Shown: in pieces, positions 36,516 to 43,661 of the stretch
Numbering within the stretch: position 1 is the first letter of the stretch
Layout of the letters: every line of letters starts with the position of its first letter
UHGV virus genome: UHGV-0382128
Source of the DNA: a virus
Direction: 5' to 3' (one strand)
DNA: 64,000 nucleotides
Translations under genes and position numbers: made by a program
The notes under the pieces: model-generated
Databases searched by the model: none
Seen by the model: only the letters and a program-made list of their open reading frames with translations
What the model was told of the DNA's origin: nothing

Positions 36516-36537
36516 GTGAGAGTAACTGAACTCTCAC
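36516..36537. other. hairpin immediately preceding 21-nt conserved element copy 1
   Basis: gtgagag-taactgaa-ctctcac inverted repeat. Confidence 0.4.
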
Positions 36538-36538
36538 C

Positions 36539-36559
36539 TAAGTAATATATATCTGAAAT
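36539..36559. repeat. 21-nt AT-rich conserved element copy 1 (taagtaatatatatctgaaat)
   Basis: identical 21-mer also at 40921..40941, same orientation, both directly downstream of a hairpin. Confidence 0.6.
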
Positions 36560-36590: not shown

Positions 36591-36610
36591 GGTGGGGGTA
36601 AACCCCCACC
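36591..36610 (-). terminator. rho-independent terminator
   Basis: hairpin ggtgggggt-aaa-cccccacc preceded on plus strand by AAAAAATAAAA. Confidence 0.55.
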
Positions 36611-36614
36611 GACG

Positions 36615-37193
36615 TTATACATCGAACCGATACTGCCGGGAGTTAATGAGGAACTCAGTATTCAGCTCAATCCATTCGAGTAAATCCCCCAACGGTAATC
36701 GGTTTGGGTTTTCTAACTCGATAGATGCAACCGGATAAGAGTTTACTAATTCCGTAATCGCCTCAATGCCCTCTTGCGTTCCATCGTCTTCTAAGGTGAT
36801 TGTAAACGGCATATCGGTACGTTCCGCATTAGGATTGTACAAACTGACTTTCGTTGCTTGCACAAACGCAGTCAGGTCGTCTCGCATAATGCGAATATCT
36901 GGCGCTAGAACTACCCAGAGATGTTGCCCTGGCTGGAGTTTACGTTTTGCGTAGTTTACGAAAGGACTTGCCGTCAAGTTATCTAAACCACAACAGATGT
37001 TACGTAAACGAATTCCGCGCGGATCTTTGTAATCCACGTCGAAAATCCCCACAGGTTCATTCGCTGCCCGCTTTATCAGAAAGGCTAATACCGTGTCCGC
37101 TCTTTCTGGTAAGGAAAGCTCTATTCCCTCAAGCTCCCCATCGACGAGATTTTCTAACCAAACGTCTTTTCGCATTTCTATTAATCGGTACAC
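36615..37193 (-). CDS. hypothetical protein (192 aa)
   Basis: ORF track. Confidence 0.5.
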   Translation of the reverse strand: MYRLIEMRKDVWLENLVDGELEGIELSLPERADTVLAFLIKRAANEPVGIFDVDYKDPRGIRLRNICCGLDNLTASPFVNYAKRKLQPGQHLWVVLAPDIRIMRDDLTAFVQATKVSLYNPNAERTDMPFTITLEDDGTQEGIEAITELVNSYPVASIELENPNRLPLGDLLEWIELNTEFLINSRQYRFDV

Positions 37194-37205: not shown

Positions 37206-37979
37206 CTAATAATTAAGTTTTACATCGGCAATAAACAGCAACTGTTTACCGTGTTGCTGCACTTCTTTCCAACCTAGTTTCATAGCAGCGTCAACAACAT
37301 CTATCATGCTGTAACGAGACATCAACGCGGTTGATTTTGTTCCTGACATTAAGTAAAGCGGCTCGTTGGGGCAACGGTCGCGTGCATCAGGAAGTTCCCG
37401 AGAGACTGCTGAGCCTTCGGGTACGGTAACAACATGAATCACGGTAAATGGTCTTTTGTGGGTTAAATAAATACGAAACCCAACGTGTTCAGACTCATGA
37501 AAGACTTTCTTTACAACCACATCTTTTAGTGTCGTCTGAACATCAATCCCAGGTAATATCGTGGATTCGCGAGAAACAAAACAACGACTATTTTCAACCA
37601 TGGAGAAATAATTACGTATCGGTAAACTGGCGTTATGATCGCGCAGTTTTTTGCTCAGTAGATCGAAGTTCAGTTCTTTAACTTTCTCTAGCCATTCTTT
37701 GGCTTGTTGTATGTAATAACTACCAACGGTGCGATAAGTCAATACCTTACCTGTGCTTACTTTCCAAAGTTTAACGCTTAGTGAATTCGGCTTATAGCGA
37801 CGATACTCACCCCGCGTATAGTTGATGCGCTCGTAACGCTCTACATCGTCAACGGGCGCAGATTCGATCGATTGTAATTGCAACGTACGATCTAATCTAT
37901 CGGCGAATAGTAGTGATGTTAGCGGACCTTCGATCAAATACGGTTCGGTTTTAAAGATATCATCTAGATGGATTTTCAT
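37206..37979 (-). CDS. hypothetical protein, 4-gene paralogue family member (C-terminal GW..V...G.QLLF.A motif)
   Basis: C-terminus LGWKEVQQHGKQLLFIADV. Confidence 0.55.
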   Translation of the reverse strand: MKIHLDDIFKTEPYLIEGPLTSLLFADRLDRTLQLQSIESAPVDDVERYERINYTRGEYRRYKPNSLSVKLWKVSTGKVLTYRTVGSYYIQQAKEWLEKVKELNFDLLSKKLRDHNASLPIRNYFSMVENSRCFVSRESTILPGIDVQTTLKDVVVKKVFHESEHVGFRIYLTHKRPFTVIHVVTVPEGSAVSRELPDARDRCPNEPLYLMSGTKSTALMSRYSMIDVVDAAMKLGWKEVQQHGKQLLFIADVKLNY

Positions 37980-38046
37980 TTCTATTTCCTTCTTAACAAA
38001 AGCCGCGACTAAAGCGCGGCAGTTAGAGAAAGTCTATTTTTACTTA

Positions 38047-39198
38047 TTAGAGGTCAGCAACAAACAACAGCTGGCAGCCGTACTTTTGTACGTCCGCCCA
38101 ACCGTAGTCTTTTCCGATTATAGGTAGATGTAAAAAATCCAGCTTCTCGTCTTTCGCTTTTAGTTTCGCCATTAACGTATTGGACTCCTCAGCACTGAGC
38201 AGTAATGCGGGCTCTTTTTCAGTACGTCCTTCTGCGGTTGGGAAGAAATTGTAATAGCTGCGAGTAGGTAAATCGACAGAAAAACTACGATTGCCTATTC
38301 TGGCGATGAACGCAACTCCTTCACAGTTAGCATCTACACTACACGACCATCCCGCCTCCGTTAAAAGGTCTTTTAACAGACACCACACTTTAAGTTGGTT
38401 CTTAGAAACTGTACGGTAAATAGCAAGATGTTCAGGAAGTAAATGTACGCCCATAACCACGTTTTCAGATTTCTCGTCAAGCAACTCTGGATGCTGTATC
38501 GGGAACAATAATTCAGTGATACCCACGTTATCAATTTTGTTAACAAAATCAGTTAATTCATCTTTTAAGGTACACACGGATTTTTCTCCTTTGTCTTCAA
38601 TAATCAGGTGGGGTTCGCCGCTAATTAAAATGTGGTAAACGAGATCGTCAGTAGAACGGTAAGTGAGCTTGATTGCTTTATCACTTAATATTTCGTAGCG
38701 GAAGAAACTTTCGTACCAACTTGAGCCGAAATCGTTTTGTGTGAGTTCCTGCTCAACTTTGATGGTTTTTGCTTCAAAGCCGATTAACTCGCTTAATAAC
38801 GCGAGTTCTTGTTTAGTTAAAATAGCTACACCGTGAAAGGGCACTTGTTCAAGCTGAAAACATAACTTAGTGACTTCACCATTTGGGAAGACCTTAAACA
38901 TAATCTTCCGGTTGCTACTCTTTTCCCTAACAACGAGTTTACGGTAATTTAGTCCACAATTTGTGTAAGCCGCGAACTGGTAACCTTCAATTTCTTCATC
39001 GGAAGTACAGACATCGACAGGCGCGATAATCTCATCGTATTCACTAAGTACACAGCAGCCCAATTTATAACCAAACAACGTATGTTGTAAAAAATAGTCG
39101 AGGGTTAAGCTTGGTAGTGGCCAAGCCCGATTATAGCATCTGTCCATCAGTTCTTTTAGGTACTTGGCATGTCTTGGTTTAGAAATAATATTTCGCAT
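38047..39198 (-). CDS. hypothetical protein, paralogue family member (383 aa)
   Basis: C-terminus DYGWADVQKYGCQLLFVADL. Confidence 0.55.
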   Translation of the reverse strand: MRNIISKPRHAKYLKELMDRCYNRAWPLPSLTLDYFLQHTLFGYKLGCCVLSEYDEIIAPVDVCTSDEEIEGYQFAAYTNCGLNYRKLVVREKSSNRKIMFKVFPNGEVTKLCFQLEQVPFHGVAILTKQELALLSELIGFEAKTIKVEQELTQNDFGSSWYESFFRYEILSDKAIKLTYRSTDDLVYHILISGEPHLIIEDKGEKSVCTLKDELTDFVNKIDNVGITELLFPIQHPELLDEKSENVVMGVHLLPEHLAIYRTVSKNQLKVWCLLKDLLTEAGWSCSVDANCEGVAFIARIGNRSFSVDLPTRSYYNFFPTAEGRTEKEPALLLSAEESNTLMAKLKAKDEKLDFLHLPIIGKDYGWADVQKYGCQLLFVADL

Positions 39199-39229
39199 TT
39201 TTACTCTCCTTTAGGGGTTTTTTCGTTAC

Positions 39230-39784
39230 TTAAGCAGGGCAAGCTAAGAACAACAACTGCTGACCGATTTTACGTACGGTATACCAACCGTGGGCTTTAG
39301 CGACCGCGATCAACGTTTCCCAGTCATCAACATCACATTGCTCGTTCCGAAGTTTTGTAAAGAGTGCTTCGGCTTCGTCTTGGTTTAATAACTTACCTGG
39401 ATTATCAGGGGTGGTGCCAGAAGGGGTTGGAAAGAAATCGTATTGACGCGCTAAGAGAAAATCAACCAGATACTTGGTGTTCTCTTTATAAACCAGCGTG
39501 GAAGTCTTCCCTTCGTGGAAGAAGCTGCCTGTTTTCCAAACGCTATCTTTCAGTAAGCTCTGAAGGTAATCTGTAAAGCCCGTTCTAAATGGGATATGCG
39601 TTTTACGCGTGATGTTGCGACGCAGCGGGGTTTCCTCTACAGCTTGTACACTTACCCCTACTATCATCGCACCTGGCTGGATAATGGTATTGGTCAGTAC
39701 GGTATAAGGACGGACAAAGAAATGTTCGCCTACGCCTTTTTCAAGGGTTTGGATAATTTCATTTTTCAGTTCAGTTTGAAACAT
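39230..39784 (-). CDS. hypothetical protein, paralogue family member (184 aa)
   Basis: C-terminus AHGWYTVRKIGQQLLFLACPA. Confidence 0.55.
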   Translation of the reverse strand: MFQTELKNEIIQTLEKGVGEHFFVRPYTVLTNTIIQPGAMIVGVSVQAVEETPLRRNITRKTHIPFRTGFTDYLQSLLKDSVWKTGSFFHEGKTSTLVYKENTKYLVDFLLARQYDFFPTPSGTTPDNPGKLLNQDEAEALFTKLRNEQCDVDDWETLIAVAKAHGWYTVRKIGQQLLFLACPA

Positions 39785-39810
39785 GGTATATTCTCCTTTT
39801 AGGTTTTTAC

Positions 39811-40545
39811 TTACGCGGTTTTAATTAGCAGCAGATAGCCCTTCGTAATCTCAGCACAACTCCACCCTTTTACGGCAGCGACACCACGAAGGTAATTTTC
39901 TGTGTGATACTGTAAAAACGGATCGTCTGGATTAATCTCAACTAGGTGAGTGGCTTTAGAAATCGTTTCCGCCTCTGGGATTTGTTTTGTTAAGCCTGAT
40001 GCAATCAGTTCAATAACGCGGTATCCCTCTAACCAAGAAACATAGATACGTAAACCGTATAACTTACCGTTATCTTTTAAGGGATAAAGACTGATGTCCC
40101 GGCCGAGCAACGTTAATTCTACATCAGTGGGAAGGTTTTCTACATGCTTGATTAACCCTACCCCATGTCTAAACAGTGGGAAGTAAGAGTATAGCGTCAG
40201 CATACTGCTTCCTCCAATAAACGTAACATCGGAAACGGTAGGCGTGCTGGCAATGAGGCGAACATGTTCCGCTACGACTTCAAGTTCGGCGTCACTGATC
40301 AATTTATAGAATAAAATGACGCTGGTTTCGGTATTAAGAACAAAGAAGAACCGGTTGGCGTGACTGCTTATCGTGTATTCGTCAACCATGCTGTCGATAA
40401 CGTCACTGTCTGGATAATCTTCGGGTTTAATTGTTTCAGCAGAGACTAACTTAGCAGGTTGGGATTGCCCTATTAGTTCATTAACCACCGTAGAAGAAAG
40501 TTCTAAACTGGTGTTAGTAAAGATATCGTCTAATAATTCTCTCAT
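39811..40545 (-). CDS. hypothetical protein, divergent paralogue family member (244 aa)
   Basis: C-terminus AAVKGWSCAEITKGYLLLIKTA. Confidence 0.5.
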   Translation of the reverse strand: MRELLDDIFTNTSLELSSTVVNELIGQSQPAKLVSAETIKPEDYPDSDVIDSMVDEYTISSHANRFFFVLNTETSVILFYKLISDAELEVVAEHVRLIASTPTVSDVTFIGGSSMLTLYSYFPLFRHGVGLIKHVENLPTDVELTLLGRDISLYPLKDNGKLYGLRIYVSWLEGYRVIELIASGLTKQIPEAETISKATHLVEINPDDPFLQYHTENYLRGVAAVKGWSCAEITKGYLLLIKTA

Positions 40546-40752
40546 GATTTACTCGCTAATCTCAATAAAGGGGAGTCTATTATTATGGATTGTAAAAGAG
40601 GTATAAGGAAGTCACTACGTTCCTCTGGGAAGAGTATGTCGGTATACTACGTATACCTCCGCTATTTATATCCGTATACATAATGCCCCCTACCCCCTAC
40701 CGGTATCCCGAGTAGCAGAATAAAGGGGCAGACTGTAAAATTTTAGTACCTG

Positions 40753-40833
40753 TTATCGGAAGGTACTAAATGGAGTGTAGTCTTTAAGCCGTTTGAGCAG
40801 CTCATTGAGACTTTCTTTCTTTTTAGTAGACAT
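40753..40833 (-). CDS. possible small basic peptide (26 aa), not in ORF track
   Basis: MSTKKKESLNELLKRLKDYTPFSTFR with GGGGAGA SD 6 nt upstream; lies in the 420-nt strand-switch region. Confidence 0.2.
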   Translation of the reverse strand: MSTKKKESLNELLKRLKDYTPFSTFR

Positions 40834-40886: not shown

Positions 40887-40911
40887 AGGGGCTGAACTGG
40901 CACTTCAGCCC
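40887..40911. other. hairpin immediately preceding 21-nt conserved element copy 2
   Basis: ggggctgaa-ctggcac-ttcagcccc (9-bp stem). Confidence 0.45.
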
Positions 40912-40920
40912 CTATTCACT

Positions 40921-40941
40921 TAAGTAATATATATCTGAAAT
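40921..40941 (+). promoter_or_regulatory. 21-nt AT-rich conserved element copy 2, candidate promoter or 5' UTR element for 40967..41932
   Basis: identical to 36539..36559; 25 nt upstream of the ATG of the first plus-strand gene after the long minus block. Confidence 0.4.
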
Positions 40942-40966: not shown

Positions 40967-41932
40967 ATGGAGAAATCCAGTGTTGATTTTTTCTCAATTG
41001 GTATCGTCGCGGAAGACAAACCCCGTGGTACAGATCGGGTAAAAGTGATACCAATTGAAACCAACTTTGCTAACCCTACCGTGGTGCAATCTGTTTCTTC
41101 AGCAACTGAAAAGACGCATGAAACATCTGGTGCAACAGATAACCTAACCATTAAGACGGGTAACACGATAACAGCAAAGTGGTGGAAGTTTAACTCCAAC
41201 CGAATTAATTCCCCTGACGTTAAACGAGAAGATTACGTTATCTTGTTACGTTTGGGGAAAACCGATATTTATTTTTGGATTGATCTGAACTTCGCTAACG
41301 TTAAGCGATTAGAGGATGCGGTTTACGCGTGGTCTGCTGACCCTGAAAACCAGATGGCGGATGACCTGTCCAATGCGTATGTGTTGAATATCTCGACGAT
41401 TGACAAACATATCACGCTAAGAACAAGTATGGTGAACGGTGAGAAAGCGGCGTGGTTGTTTCAGTTTGATAATGCAAACGGTACGTGGCAGTGTGTTGAC
41501 CATAAAGGAAACAAGTATTACATTAACTCGGTTGAAGATGATCTCGGGTTTGAGAATGCGATGCTTTCAAAAGTGAACATCAACAAAGAAGATGCGTTCA
41601 TTTATTCAAAGCGTTCTATTAACCTGGAAACGAAAACAATTAATGAAAAATGCGAAGTTCGCAATACGGAAGCAGCGAAATCCGTTACGTTTAAAACGCA
41701 AACCTGGTTAACGGAAGCAGGGAGTTCGACAACATTTAAAACGCCGAACTTTAAACAAGAAGGGAATGAAGCGATGTTCACCGGTAATCTGGAAATCGCT
41801 AAGAACTTCAAATACGGTGGTACGGGCAAAGGCGTCGGTGTCTTTACGGTTAAAGATGCCGTTATTTCTGGTATTACCTTTAGCGTTCACATTCACCAAG
41901 GTAAACATGGCCCGACATCACCTCCACAGTAA
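40967..41932 (+). CDS. hypothetical protein (321 aa), possibly structural
   Basis: ORF track; AAGGA SD; beta-rich Thr/Asn/Lys composition. Confidence 0.55.
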   Translation: MEKSSVDFFSIGIVAEDKPRGTDRVKVIPIETNFANPTVVQSVSSATEKTHETSGATDNLTIKTGNTITAKWWKFNSNRINSPDVKREDYVILLRLGKTDIYFWIDLNFANVKRLEDAVYAWSADPENQMADDLSNAYVLNISTIDKHITLRTSMVNGEKAAWLFQFDNANGTWQCVDHKGNKYYINSVEDDLGFENAMLSKVNINKEDAFIYSKRSINLETKTINEKCEVRNTEAAKSVTFKTQTWLTEAGSSTTFKTPNFKQEGNEAMFTGNLEIAKNFKYGGTGKGVGVFTVKDAVISGITFSVHIHQGKHGPTSPPQ

Positions 41933-42070: not shown

Positions 42071-42138
42071 CTATCTTATGCTTCGGTTGTAACACACGTC
42101 GGTCTTAGACCACTAACCTTTTGAAATGGAGAGCTGTT

Positions 42139-42348
42139 ATGTCTATTAAAGAGTTCTCTTCTGCTGAGCATATTCCAGAAGAGTTTAAGAAAATCGGTAA
42201 CGTCAGCGCTTTCGGCGATACCGTTGATCATGTAACTGGTAAACTGGCTGCTGAAGCCGAAAAAATTGGTGGTGACGCATTCAAAGTTATCGGTATTTCC
42301 GGCAACAACAAACTGCACGGTAACGCGATTGTCTACAAAAAAGACTAA
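42139..42348 (+). CDS. DUF1471 (YhcN/BhsA/YdgH-like) domain protein without signal peptide (69 aa)
   Basis: GNVSAFGDTVDHVTGKLAAEAEKIGGDAFKVIGISGNNKLHGNAIVYKK matches the enterobacterial DUF1471 pattern; start at Met 7 of the ORF (GGAGAG SD). Confidence 0.55.
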   Translation: MSIKEFSSAEHIPEEFKKIGNVSAFGDTVDHVTGKLAAEAEKIGGDAFKVIGISGNNKLHGNAIVYKKD

Positions 42349-42398: not shown

Positions 42399-43661
42399 TT
42401 ATTTTTTTCGTGCTCTAAAGCGATGCATTTCTAAATACACTTTTTCCCAGGGACCGAATGGACCAACGATTGCTTGAGCATCGTTAATCTTCTTCTGATT
42501 ATACCACCGGGCTTCACGAAAGACGTAGTTTTGACTGTCGAATTCGGTAGTGTTAAATACCCACTCACCTTCCTCCCACGTAGGCCAATAACCTACCGTC
42601 TTTCCAAATCGATTATTTAAGTACCCTAATGGTTTTTCAGAATCAGGATCGTTGGGGTCCTTGAGATAACAGCGTCCCCAAACGGCGTTATGCGAAACAC
42701 CCACAACTTCTTCTTCTAAATACGGATTATCTACCGTAAAGATAAAAGAGGATTCGTGGAGTAAAAGTGCTTTTAGTGTTTCAGGGTTACGAATACGTTG
42801 AACGTTGGTAGGCGATGATAAATCCCCTACACCGATGCTATCCCAGTCGTAATAACGGCGGGTTTCCAGAACGGTCCGTGCAAGATCAAAATTCGGTAAA
42901 GAAATCATGATCGCACGGTCAGAGAAATAACCGTCCGGTGGCAACCAACGTAGCAATCCGCCTATGACGAAACCCACGGTTTTTCCCGTAATAGACTCAG
43001 GCAGCGATATCATTAACGTGGAGTAATAGTCGCGCGTAGTGTCGAGCTTGTTTAGCGTAAGGTTGGCGATTGGGTAAGTTTTAACATTCCCTAGCTGACC
43101 AAAAACCATACAGCCAATATCTGGTGTACATGCTCTCCGTACGATTTTACCGGCCCCAGGCAATCGCACACCTACGGTATCCGTCTGGTGTGGTACCCAT
43201 TGGCCGTTAATGTTGTACAGTACACTATTACGGTATTTGTCTTTCCACTTGTCCTCACAAACGACGACAACGTCATCAGCATCGTCTAGGCTGAAATCTT
43301 GACTGTGGTGGTACCCTGGTGGACACAGATATGTTTCGACAGGTACATCGGCATTAATTGATTGGTAATGTGCCCAACTGAATTCCAGTTTCGGCAATCC
43401 AGCCTTTAGAGTGGGAATGACGTTTCCGGCCTTTTCGTTTAACCAATCTTGTAAAGTGTCTGTTCGGTTTTGTAGTTCGGCAAGATGGTATTGACTGACT
43501 AACGTATAGTCTTTACCAAGTGCACTTAAACCGATCTCAAAGGTGTGGTAGTCTGAACACAACGTAGTTAAAGGTTGCGTGACATCGATGGCTCCCCAGG
43601 TACGGGACTCTCGAGAGAAGCCAAAAGCGCTGTCGGGCCGCACTTGATAAGCAGTAGTCAC
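42399..43661 (-). CDS. hypothetical protein (420 aa), divergent from the tail-fibre operon
   Basis: ORF track; apparent GTG start. Confidence 0.55.
   Translation of the reverse strand: MTTAYQVRPDSAFGFSRESRTWGAIDVTQPLTTLCSDYHTFEIGLSALGKDYTLVSQYHLAELQNRTDTLQDWLNEKAGNVIPTLKAGLPKLEFSWAHYQSINADVPVETYLCPPGYHHSQDFSLDDADDVVVVCEDKWKDKYRNSVLYNINGQWVPHQTDTVGVRLPGAGKIVRRACTPDIGCMVFGQLGNVKTYPIANLTLNKLDTTRDYYSTLMISLPESITGKTVGFVIGGLLRWLPPDGYFSDRAIMISLPNFDLARTVLETRRYYDWDSIGVGDLSSPTNVQRIRNPETLKALLLHESSFIFTVDNPYLEEEVVGVSHNAVWGRCYLKDPNDPDSEKPLGYLNNRFGKTVGYWPTWEEGEWVFNTTEFDSQNYVFREARWYNQKKINDAQAIVGPFGPWEKVYLEMHRFRARKK

What the first reader, a model, noticed from the sequence alone, without database searches (positions are those of the whole stretch)
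37206..40545. Four-gene paralogue family with a conserved C-terminal GW..V...G.QLLF.A motif
Four adjacent genes (257, 383, 184, 244 aa) have unrelated N-terminal regions but end in a common motif (LGWKEVQQHGKQLLFIADV / DYGWADVQKYGCQLLFVADL / AHGWYTVRKIGQQLLFLACPA / VKGWSCAEITKGYLLLIKTA). A variable N-terminal module on a constant C-terminal module suggests a diversified family, for example different targets coupled to a common interaction or localisation domain.
Basis: seen in the sequence. Interest (0 to 1): 0.45.

Follow-up and report, generated by a model that had tools for sequence, protein, structure and literature searches.

The report
Jumbo-phage early gene family, shared C-terminal domain
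Four neighbouring genes of a giant bacterial virus are fast-evolving copies of one uncharacterised gene family, defined by a small conserved C-terminal domain that many giant phages attach to very different N-terminal parts; the family is real, but its function is still unknown.

Summary
The four minus-strand ORFs exist as described, with 257, 383, 184 and 244 aa. Three of them share a significant C-terminal domain of about 65-80 aa (BLASTP E 1e-5 to 1e-13), which is much longer than the 19-aa motif. The 244-aa protein fails BLAST and HMM tests. It is linked to the others only by profile-profile alignment (P 8e-5), an identical predicted beta-alpha-alpha-beta-beta topology and weak fold hits to family members.

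The window is a jumbo phage related to Erwinia phiEaH2 and Salmonella SPN3US. Those phages carry one such gene at the same position (SPN3US gp175). This clade carries four.

An exhaustive profile search found 67 cluster representatives. About half have the domain at the C-terminus, on 19 mutually unrelated N-terminal types. Others are stand-alone, and four carry it at the N-terminus. There is no Pfam, PDB or defence-library match, and the four matching PHROGs have no known function.

The array lies between a conserved promoter-like 26-nt motif of early type and a terminator. It evolves 5-8 times faster than its neighbours in dN/dS.

My best reading is an expanded early-gene family that joins a constant partner-binding domain to variable N-terminal domains. 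The architecture is shown here. The function is inferred.

The parts
40916..40941 (-). 26-nt promoter-like motif ATTTCAGATATATATTACTTAAGTGA at the head of the array. It is a candidate early promoter for the virion RNA polymerase.
   Evidence: The motif has two exact copies in the window, both minus strand and intergenic, against 0 expected from shuffles. It is also present upstream of the D orthologues in L005-L007 and upstream of the family gene in EarlPhillipIV and a CR5-like contig. It recurs 3-8 times per genome in related jumbo phages. It fits the description of jumbo-phage early promoters in PMC7598289.
40753..40833 (-). Small ORF of 26 aa (MSTKKKESLNELLKRLKDYTPFSTFR) between the promoter motif and D244.
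   Evidence: Seen. The frame, length and residue pattern are kept in L005 and L006 despite many amino-acid changes.
40600..40725 (-). Conserved leader element containing the hairpin GGUAUACGUAGUAUACC.
   Evidence: The element is nearly identical to those of L005-L007 and partly conserved upstream of gp174 in SPN3US and phiEaH2, with changes on both sides of the hairpin stem. There is no Rfam match. Its folding energy is not exceptional (z=-1.45).
39811..40545 (-). D244, the first gene of the array and a divergent, probable family member.
   Evidence: dN/dS is 0.42-0.45 in the N-part.
39814..39981 (-). Degenerate C-terminal domain of D244, residues 189-244 (IPEAETISKATHLVE...GWSCAEITKGYLLLIKTA).
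   Evidence: hhalign gives P=7.7e-5 against the domain family. AF2 predicts E199-203, H209-213, H216-225, E230-234 and E237-241. HMM is not significant.
39230..39784 (-). C184, the second gene, carrying the domain on the shortest N-terminal part.
   Evidence: The AF2 model has pLDDT 87. The gene is only about 43% identical to the gene at the same position in sister phages, while flanking genes are 89-96% identical.
39233..39433 (-). C-terminal domain of C184, residues 118-184.
   Evidence: HMM E=1e-21. AF2 predicts E130-133, H135-147, H155-164, E169-173 and E176-180.
38047..39198 (-). B383, the third gene, with the longest N-terminal region.
   Evidence: The N-terminal 300 aa is found only in orthologues of 381-387 aa. 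dN/dS of the N-part is 0.43-0.48.
38050..38244 (-). C-terminal domain of B383, residues 319-383.
   Evidence: HMM E=2e-20. PHROG matches to the C-terminal ends of phrog_26772, phrog_33648 and phrog_24489.
37206..37979 (-). A257, the fourth gene. It is the most conserved copy, has the intact motif, and is the likely orthologue of SPN3US gp175 and phiEaH2 AFQ96642.
   Evidence: Evidence comes (E=7e-11 to gp175-like, 1.5e-8 to the phiEaH2 223-aa protein). dN/dS is 0.07-0.18.
37209..37394 (-). C-terminal domain of A257, residues 196-257 (LPDARDRCPNEPLYLMS...GWKEVQQHGKQLLFIADV).
   Evidence: HMM E=3e-23. BLASTP hits.
36615..37193 (-). 192-aa gene (phrog_20879), the orthologue of SPN3US gp177. It is the last gene of the same putative transcription unit and does not carry the domain.
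   Evidence: The gene follows A257 in all sister loci.
36591..36610 (-). Terminator-like hairpin GGTGGGGGTTTACCCCCACC followed by a T-run, closing the unit.
36534..36559 (-). Second copy of the 26-nt promoter-like motif, starting the next unit.

Best explanation
The region is a clade-specific tandem expansion of one gene family found in jumbo phages. The family's prototype in cultured phages is the single gene at the same position in SPN3US (gp175), phiEaH2 (AFQ96642) and EarlPhillipIV (gp170). There are three clear paralogues here and one probable, degenerate fourth.

The family is defined by a C-terminal domain of about 65-80 aa. It starts with a conserved acidic/Arg/Asn loop (PDxxDR[ST]xN[DE]P). 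A strand follows, then two helices and a GW...GxQLLF beta-hairpin.

Shown here:
- The domain is an independent module that is found alone, at the C-terminus and at the N-terminus.
- It is joined to at least 19 N-terminal regions with no detectable sequence similarity to each other.
- In this clade the array D-C-B-A plus a 192-aa gene is conserved in order.
- The array is bracketed by a promoter-like motif and a terminator-like hairpin.
- B, C and D evolve much faster than A and than the flanking structural genes.

Inferred:
- The unit is transcribed early by the virion RNA polymerase.
- The constant domain binds one conserved partner, either itself or a conserved phage or host component.
- The variable N-terminal alpha/beta domains provide changing specificities, for example towards host factors.
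- A keeps the ancestral role. B, C and D have lost most of the conserved polar loop and are sub- or neo-functionalised copies.
For: Pairwise significance is shown, and family HMM hits limited to A, B and C.

Synteny with single-copy genes in phiEaH2, SPN3US and EarlPhillipIV is shown.

The exhaustive profile search found 67 representatives at E<=1e-3. Their architectures and the 19 N-terminal groups come. Four PHROGs match only through their C-terminal ends.

The array is conserved in three sister contigs. Identity and dN/dS gradients are: flanks 0.03-0.08, A 0.07-0.18, B and D N-parts 0.42-0.48.

The AF2 models are confident and have the same C-terminal element order in C184 and D244.

The promoter-like motif and terminator are shown. 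The motif recurs in related phages and matches the published description of jumbo-phage early promoters (PMC7598289).

The domain occurs only in jumbo phages of Enterobacterales and Shewanella within the phage collection.
Against: - No experiment or annotated homologue bears on function.
- Pfam, NCBIfam, PADLOC and PDB sequence searches are all empty.
- D244 fails BLAST and HMM tests.
- The early-promoter assignment rests on motif resemblance only.
- The motif is absent within 3 mismatches upstream of gp174/gp175 in SPN3US and phiEaH2.
- All dN/dS values are below 1, so relaxed constraint explains the fast evolution as well as an arms race does.
- The N-terminal parts may share a fold. There is a weak A-D signal, and both models have a three-strand meander before the domain. 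That would weaken the 'different modules' picture.
Confidence: 0.5

Rival explanations
1. The conserved domain is a winged-helix-like nucleic-acid-binding module. On this reading the proteins are early DNA- or RNA-binding regulators, and their variable N-terminal domains sense or recruit different factors.
Confidence: 0.15
2. There is no real modularity within this array. A to D would be whole-length homologues of one fold produced by tandem duplication, with the C-terminus simply their slowest-evolving part. They would act as single units, for example as assembly factors for the adjacent baseplate and tail genes.
For: A and D align collinearly over their whole length, although weakly (P=0.003 without the domain, P=0.001 with it), and share an N-terminal LDDIF motif. 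B and C share 108 aa, not just the domain. Both AF2 models place a helix and a three-strand meander directly before the domain, and pTM is high (0.73 and 0.83), which suggests compact proteins. The array sits next to baseplate and tail genes. SPN3US gp171 is an essential tail protein (PMC5105663).
Against: The domain exists alone in about 28 representatives and at the N-terminus in 4. The other N-terminal comparisons are at chance level. The array is transcribed divergently from the baseplate gene behind its own promoter-like motif. SPN3US gp175 is not mentioned in the main text of the SPN3US essential-gene and virion-proteome paper that I searched.
Confidence: 0.2
3. The C-terminal resemblance is chance or a compositional artefact, and the four genes are unrelated.
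For: This could apply only to D244, which has no significant BLAST or HMM match.
Against: E-values for A, B and C range from 1e-5 to 1e-13. The HMM search reaches 1e-20 or better and finds 67 independent representatives. The single-copy gene at the same position in related phages carries the same domain.
Confidence: 0.02

Closest known systems
SPN3US gp175 (AEP84008, 412 aa), phiEaH2 AFQ96642 (223 aa) and EarlPhillipIV gp170 (356 aa), which correspond to PHROGs 33648, 24489, 26772 and 18480, all of unknown function
   Same: They share the same C-terminal domain (E 1e-6 to 1e-11 to A and B; HMM E about 1e-24 to 1e-26). They hold the same position, downstream of and divergent from the baseplate assembly gene and upstream of the gp177-like 192-aa gene. 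Their N-terminal parts are likewise unrelated to each other.
   Different: Those phages carry one copy and this clade carries four in tandem. Three of the four copies here have a degraded PDxxDRSxNEP loop. The N-terminal regions of B, C and D have no detectable relatives outside this clade.
T4-type internal proteins (IPI/II/III) and their hyperplastic locus. This is a comparison by function, drawn from general knowledge and not tested here.
   Same: Both involve a short constant part shared by otherwise unrelated, rapidly diversifying small proteins that are encoded side by side at a variable locus.
   Different: In T4 the constant part is a cleaved N-terminal capsid-targeting peptide of about 10 aa on late, packaged proteins. 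Here it is a folded C-terminal domain of 65-80 aa on genes that sit behind an early-type promoter motif. There is no evidence of packaging or cleavage.
Winged-helix / wHTH domains
   Different: There is no first helix and no significant sequence or structure score. The conserved residues lie outside the helices, and a variable insertion of up to about 30 aa sits between the two helices in stand-alone members.

Membership tests
SPN3US gp175-like C-terminal domain family (PHROGs 26772, 33648, 24489, 18480) | Significant profile match to the C-terminal domain | tested here: met
   A, B and C score HMM E 3e-23, 2e-20 and 1e-21. A and B also match the PHROG C-terminal ends. C gave no PHROG hit but does match the HMM.
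SPN3US gp175-like C-terminal domain family (PHROGs 26772, 33648, 24489, 18480) | The same significant profile match, applied to D244 | tested here: inconclusive
   HMM E=5.7 and no BLAST HSP. On the other side, hhalign gives P=7.7e-5 over 64 collinear columns, the predicted topology is the same, and there are weak Foldseek hits to a 223-aa phiEaH2 protein and a 356-aa EarlPhillipIV protein.
SPN3US gp175-like C-terminal domain family (PHROGs 26772, 33648, 24489, 18480) | Conserved loop PDxxDR[ST]xN[DE]PxYL[ML]S | tested here: inconclusive
   The loop is intact in A (LPDARDRCPNEPLYLMS). It is partly kept in B (FPTAEGRTEKEPALLLS) and C (FPTPSGTTPDNPGKLLN) and lost in D (IPEAETISKATHLVE).
SPN3US gp175-like C-terminal domain family (PHROGs 26772, 33648, 24489, 18480) | GW...GxQLLF hairpin at the extreme C-terminus | tested here: met
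   A has GWKEVQQHGKQLLF, B has GWADVQKYGCQLLF and C has GWYTVRKIGQQLLF. D keeps GW and LLL only (GWSCAEITKGYLLL).
SPN3US gp175-like C-terminal domain family (PHROGs 26772, 33648, 24489, 18480) | Syntenic position next to and divergent from the baseplate assembly gene, upstream of the gp177-like gene | tested here: met
Winged-helix DNA-binding domains | H1-S1-H2-H3-S2-S3 fold with a significant structural match | tested here: not met
Winged-helix DNA-binding domains | Sequence match to an HTH or wH family model | tested here: not met
   Only single-member hits below the thresholds appeared among the 45 members. There was no PDB sequence hit.
Excisionase / AlpA-type (MerR-like) winged helix | Profile similarity to Xis, AlpA or TorI | tested here: not met
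   hhalign of the domain profile against three sequences recalled from memory gave P of 0.14 or worse.
Jumbo-phage early (virion RNA polymerase) promoters | Highly conserved AT-rich core of about 10 nt, recurring upstream of operons | tested here: met
   Two exact 26-nt copies, in the right orientation and intergenic. The motif recurs in sister loci and related genomes. The published description is in PMC7598289.
Jumbo-phage early (virion RNA polymerase) promoters | Transcription start about 10 nt downstream and early timing | not testable with these tools
   This needs RNA-seq or 5'-end mapping during infection.

The most novel reading that the evidence does not exclude
The domain is a docking module specific to jumbo phages. 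It would tether hypervariable early effector domains to one conserved hub, such as a component of the early infection compartment or phage nucleus, or a conserved host machine. The locus next to the baseplate gene would then be a diversity hot spot for host-interaction or anti-defence functions, and it has been expanded to four genes in this uncultured enterobacterial clade. B, C and D would be decoy-like or neo-functionalised copies that kept the fold but lost the conserved polar loop.
Probability: 0.2. Interest if true: 0.6.

Novelty: new member of a known kind. Interest (0 to 1): 0.35.

Why it matters
Most early genes of jumbo phages have no known function. This work links four separate PHROG families, together with many stand-alone small proteins, through one portable domain. 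It shows that the domain sits at a fixed genomic position where the N-terminal part is swapped or diversified between related phages.

That gives a defined and tractable target. One domain could be used as bait for a conserved partner, and the fast-evolving N-terminal parts could then be tested as host-specific effectors. The practical pay-off depends wholly on experiments. On present evidence this is an uncharacterised but ordinary kind of phage accessory gene family.

Tried and rejected
- tblastn of B383 and D244 against 50,697 phage records found nothing at E<=1e-3.
- Pfam, NCBIfam and PADLOC scans of the four proteins and of stand-alone or N-terminal members gave no credible hit.
- A profile search of PDB sequences gave nothing below E=0.17.
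- The excisionase/AlpA idea, prompted by the YL(T/M)...G..(Y/L)LF pattern, found no support.
- The phiKZ-style octamer TATATTAC alone occurs at chance frequency in the window, with 2 found against 2.6 expected. Only the extended 26-mer is significant.
- The literature was searched for SPN3US gp175. Every 'gp175' passage read is the phiKZ protease, and the SPN3US essential-gene paper does not contain the term. The SPN3US infection proteomics paper is not held.
- Rfam has no match for the conserved leader, and its folding energy is unremarkable.
- The N-terminal 300 aa of B383 occurs only in full-length orthologues, so there is no sign that this module is reused elsewhere.
Full report
**What is there**

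The window carries four consecutive ORFs on the minus strand:

| Name | Coordinates | Length |
|---|---|---|
| A257 | 37206-37979 | 257 aa |
| B383 | 38047-39198 | 383 aa |
| C184 | 39230-39784 | 184 aa |
| D244 | 39811-40545 | 244 aa |

They lie between a plus-strand baseplate-assembly gene (40967-41932, phrog_3216, E=9e-114) and a 192-aa gene (36615-37193, phrog_20879). The neighbouring gene at 42399-43661 is 80% identical at protein level to Erwinia phage phiEaH2 and 76% identical to SPN3US-like Salmonella phages. No phage record matches the DNA of the region, apart from a short intergenic motif. The window therefore comes from an undescribed jumbo phage related to Erskinevirus and Seoulvirus.

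Orthologues of D244 lie on contigs of 222-227 kb, several from Shigella, E. coli and Salmonella assemblies.

**Is the similarity real?**

BLASTP gives the following:

| Pair | E-value | Length |
|---|---|---|
| A-B | 6e-9 | 65 aa |
| A-C | 1e-5 | 64 aa |
| B-C | 1e-13 | 108 aa |

All three alignments run to the C-terminal ends. An HMM built from 86 domain hits found A, B and C at E=1e-20 to 1e-23, and found no other ORF in the six-frame translation of the window. The conserved unit is a domain of about 65-80 aa, not a 19-aa motif. Its consensus is (L/I/F)PDxxDR(S/T)xN(D/E)PxYLMS, then a variable stretch, then A...GWxxVxxxGxQLLF(I/V)A.

D244 is different. It has no C-terminal BLAST HSP and its HMM E-value is 5.7. 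Three weaker results support its membership:
- With 73 D sequences (D244 and its orthologues) as a profile, hhalign aligns its last 64 residues collinearly with the whole domain (IPEAE to LPDSGD, GW to GW, LLLI to LLFI). P is 7.7e-5 and the probability is 62%.
- AF2 predicts the same order of elements in both proteins, with mean pLDDT of 87 for C184 and 89 for D244. In C184 the order is three strands, a linker, then E130-133, H135-147, H155-164, E169-173 and E176-180. In D244 the order is three strands, a linker, then E199-203, H209-213, H216-225, E230-234 and E237-241.
- The best BFVD matches of D244 are weak, but they are jumbo Erwinia phage proteins. They include a 356-aa EarlPhillipIV protein and a 223-aa phiEaH2 protein, which are the lengths of the syntenic family members.

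**The N-terminal parts**

With the domain removed, profile-profile comparisons are at chance level (P>=0.1). The exception is a weak collinear A-D alignment (P=0.003), to which a shared N-terminal LDDIF motif adds a little. B and C also share about 40 residues just upstream of the domain. 'Unrelated N-termini' is therefore a fair description at sequence level, but a common fold is not excluded.

**Relatives**

Each of the following carries one gene with this domain at the same position:
- phiEaH2: AFQ96642, 223 aa
- SPN3US-like phages: gp175, 412 aa
- EarlPhillipIV: gp170, 356 aa
- CR5 also has a match to the domain at the corresponding genome position

Their N-terminal parts are mutually dissimilar.

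Four PHROGs (26772, 33648, 24489, 18480), all of unknown function, match only through their C-terminal ends.

An exhaustive profile search of 1.84 billion cluster representatives found 67 at E<=1e-3. I pooled these with the seven earlier hits, which are mostly fragments. Of the resulting 73 sequences:
- 34 have the domain at the C-terminus of proteins of 184-534 aa, and their N-terminal parts fall into 19 BLAST-unrelated groups;
- about 28 are stand-alone proteins of 72-162 aa;
- 4 carry the domain at the N-terminus.

In the phage collection the domain occurs in jumbo phages of Erwinia, Salmonella, Cronobacter, Klebsiella and Shewanella. The N-terminal 300 aa of B383 is found only in full-length orthologues.

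**Conservation and rate within the clade**

Three sister contigs keep the order D-C-B-A-192 aa. In one of them B is split into 233 and 112 aa. Protein identity to the window, and Nei-Gojobori dN/dS, are as follows:

| Gene | Identity to window | dN/dS |
|---|---|---|
| gp171-like gene (42399-43661) | not computed | 0.03 (one unsaturated comparison) |
| Baseplate gene | 93-96% | 0.06-0.07 |
| 192-aa gene | 89-90% | 0.07-0.08 |
| A | 79-92% | 0.07-0.18 |
| B | about 70% | 0.43-0.48 (N-part) |
| D | 48-79% | 0.42-0.45 (N-part, two closer comparisons), 0.29-0.38 (domain) |
| C | about 43% | synonymous sites saturated in the N-part |

In C the N-terminal part is 31-34% identical and the domain 66-69% identical. 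All four genes remain under purifying selection. B, C and D are far less constrained than A, and C looks like an allelic replacement. A also keeps the intact polar loop and is the closest copy to gp175, so it is probably the ancestral copy.

**Transcription unit**

A 26-nt motif, ATTTCAGATATATATTACTTARGTGA, occurs exactly twice in the window. Both copies are on the minus strand and intergenic, at 40916-40941 upstream of the array and at 36534-36559 just after it. Shuffles give none.

A strong terminator-like hairpin with a T-run (36591-36610) follows the 192-aa gene, and a weaker one lies between B and A.

The motif is found at the same places in the sister contigs, directly upstream of EarlPhillipIV gp170 and upstream of the family gene on a CR5-like contig. 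It recurs 3-8 times per genome in unannotated DNA of related jumbo phages. This fits the published description of jumbo-phage early promoters, a highly conserved AT-rich core of about 10 nt near -10 that is recognised by the virion RNA polymerase (PMC7598289).

Two caveats apply. The assignment is by resemblance only. The motif is also not found upstream of gp174/gp175 in SPN3US and phiEaH2.

**Function**

Nothing known matches:
- Pfam, NCBIfam and PADLOC scans are empty.
- The PDB sequence search is empty.

The domain's strand-helix-helix-hairpin order resembles a winged helix lacking its first helix, and such domains recur among the marginal hits. None of these scores is convincing, and the most conserved residues lie outside the helices. 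An excisionase-like idea found no support. I found no published data on SPN3US gp175.

**Conclusion**

The 'constant C-terminal, variable N-terminal' architecture is well supported across jumbo phages.

The most likely reading has two parts:
- This is a clade-specific four-gene expansion of an uncharacterised gene family that is probably expressed early.
- Its constant domain binds a conserved partner, while the variable N-terminal domains supply changing specificities.

That mechanism is inferred, not shown. The main rivals are a nucleic-acid-binding winged-helix role and whole-length homologues acting as single units.

Noticed in passing
window 40916-40941 (-) and 36534-36559 (-): There are two exact copies of a 26-nt AT-rich motif, ATTTCAGATATATATTACTTARGTGA, in intergenic DNA. 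The motif is conserved in sister contigs and recurs several times per genome in related jumbo phages. It is probably the early promoter of this phage group.
   Followed up: partly
window 40753-40833 (-): A 26-aa ORF (MSTKKKESLNELLKRLKDYTPFSTFR) lies between the promoter motif and D244. L005 (MLAEQKDGIEEVVRLFRHYSPYLPR) and L006 (MSTEKKSGLDEVIELFKRYNPAIPR) keep its frame, length and residue pattern despite many substitutions, so it is probably a real micro-protein gene.
   Followed up: partly
window 40600-40725 (-); L001 11735-11850; L004 3965-4075: A conserved leader element sits upstream of D244 and, in SPN3US and phiEaH2, upstream of gp174. It contains a G-rich repeat (GGGGGTAGGGGG) and a hairpin whose stem changes on both sides between phages: GGTATACGTAGTATACC, GGTGACAACGGTCACC and GGTATCCGTAGGATACC. 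There is no Rfam match, the folding z-score is -1.45, and only four sequences were compared.
   Followed up: partly
L007 10334-11485: In one sister phage the B orthologue is split into ORFs of 233 aa and 112 aa. The second ORF is essentially the stand-alone domain. This is either a frameshift or pseudogene, or a natural route to stand-alone domain proteins.
   Followed up: no
window 39230-39784 compared with L005-L007: C184 is only about 43% identical to the gene at the same position in three sister phages, whose flanking genes are 89-96% identical. This suggests that a divergent allele was swapped in rather than that the gene diverged gradually.
   Followed up: partly
window 42121-42348 (+): A 75-aa ORF corresponds to a 69-aa gene with a YdgH/BhsA-like domain (PF07338) in the sister loci. 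This is a bacterial stress and biofilm protein domain sitting between tail genes of a jumbo phage.
   Followed up: no
whole window; contigs found: Near-identical and related phage genomes appear as contigs of 222-227 kb, several from Shigella, E. coli and Salmonella assemblies. No cultured phage in the collection matches the DNA. This looks like a common but undescribed enterobacterial jumbo-phage clade.
   Followed up: no
window 40888-40912: A perfect GC-rich hairpin, GGGGCTGAAGTGCCAGTTCAGCCCC, lies immediately downstream of the promoter motif copy at the head of the array. It is absent from the second copy of the motif. Its role is not examined; it could be an attenuator or a bidirectional terminator for the baseplate side.
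   Followed up: no
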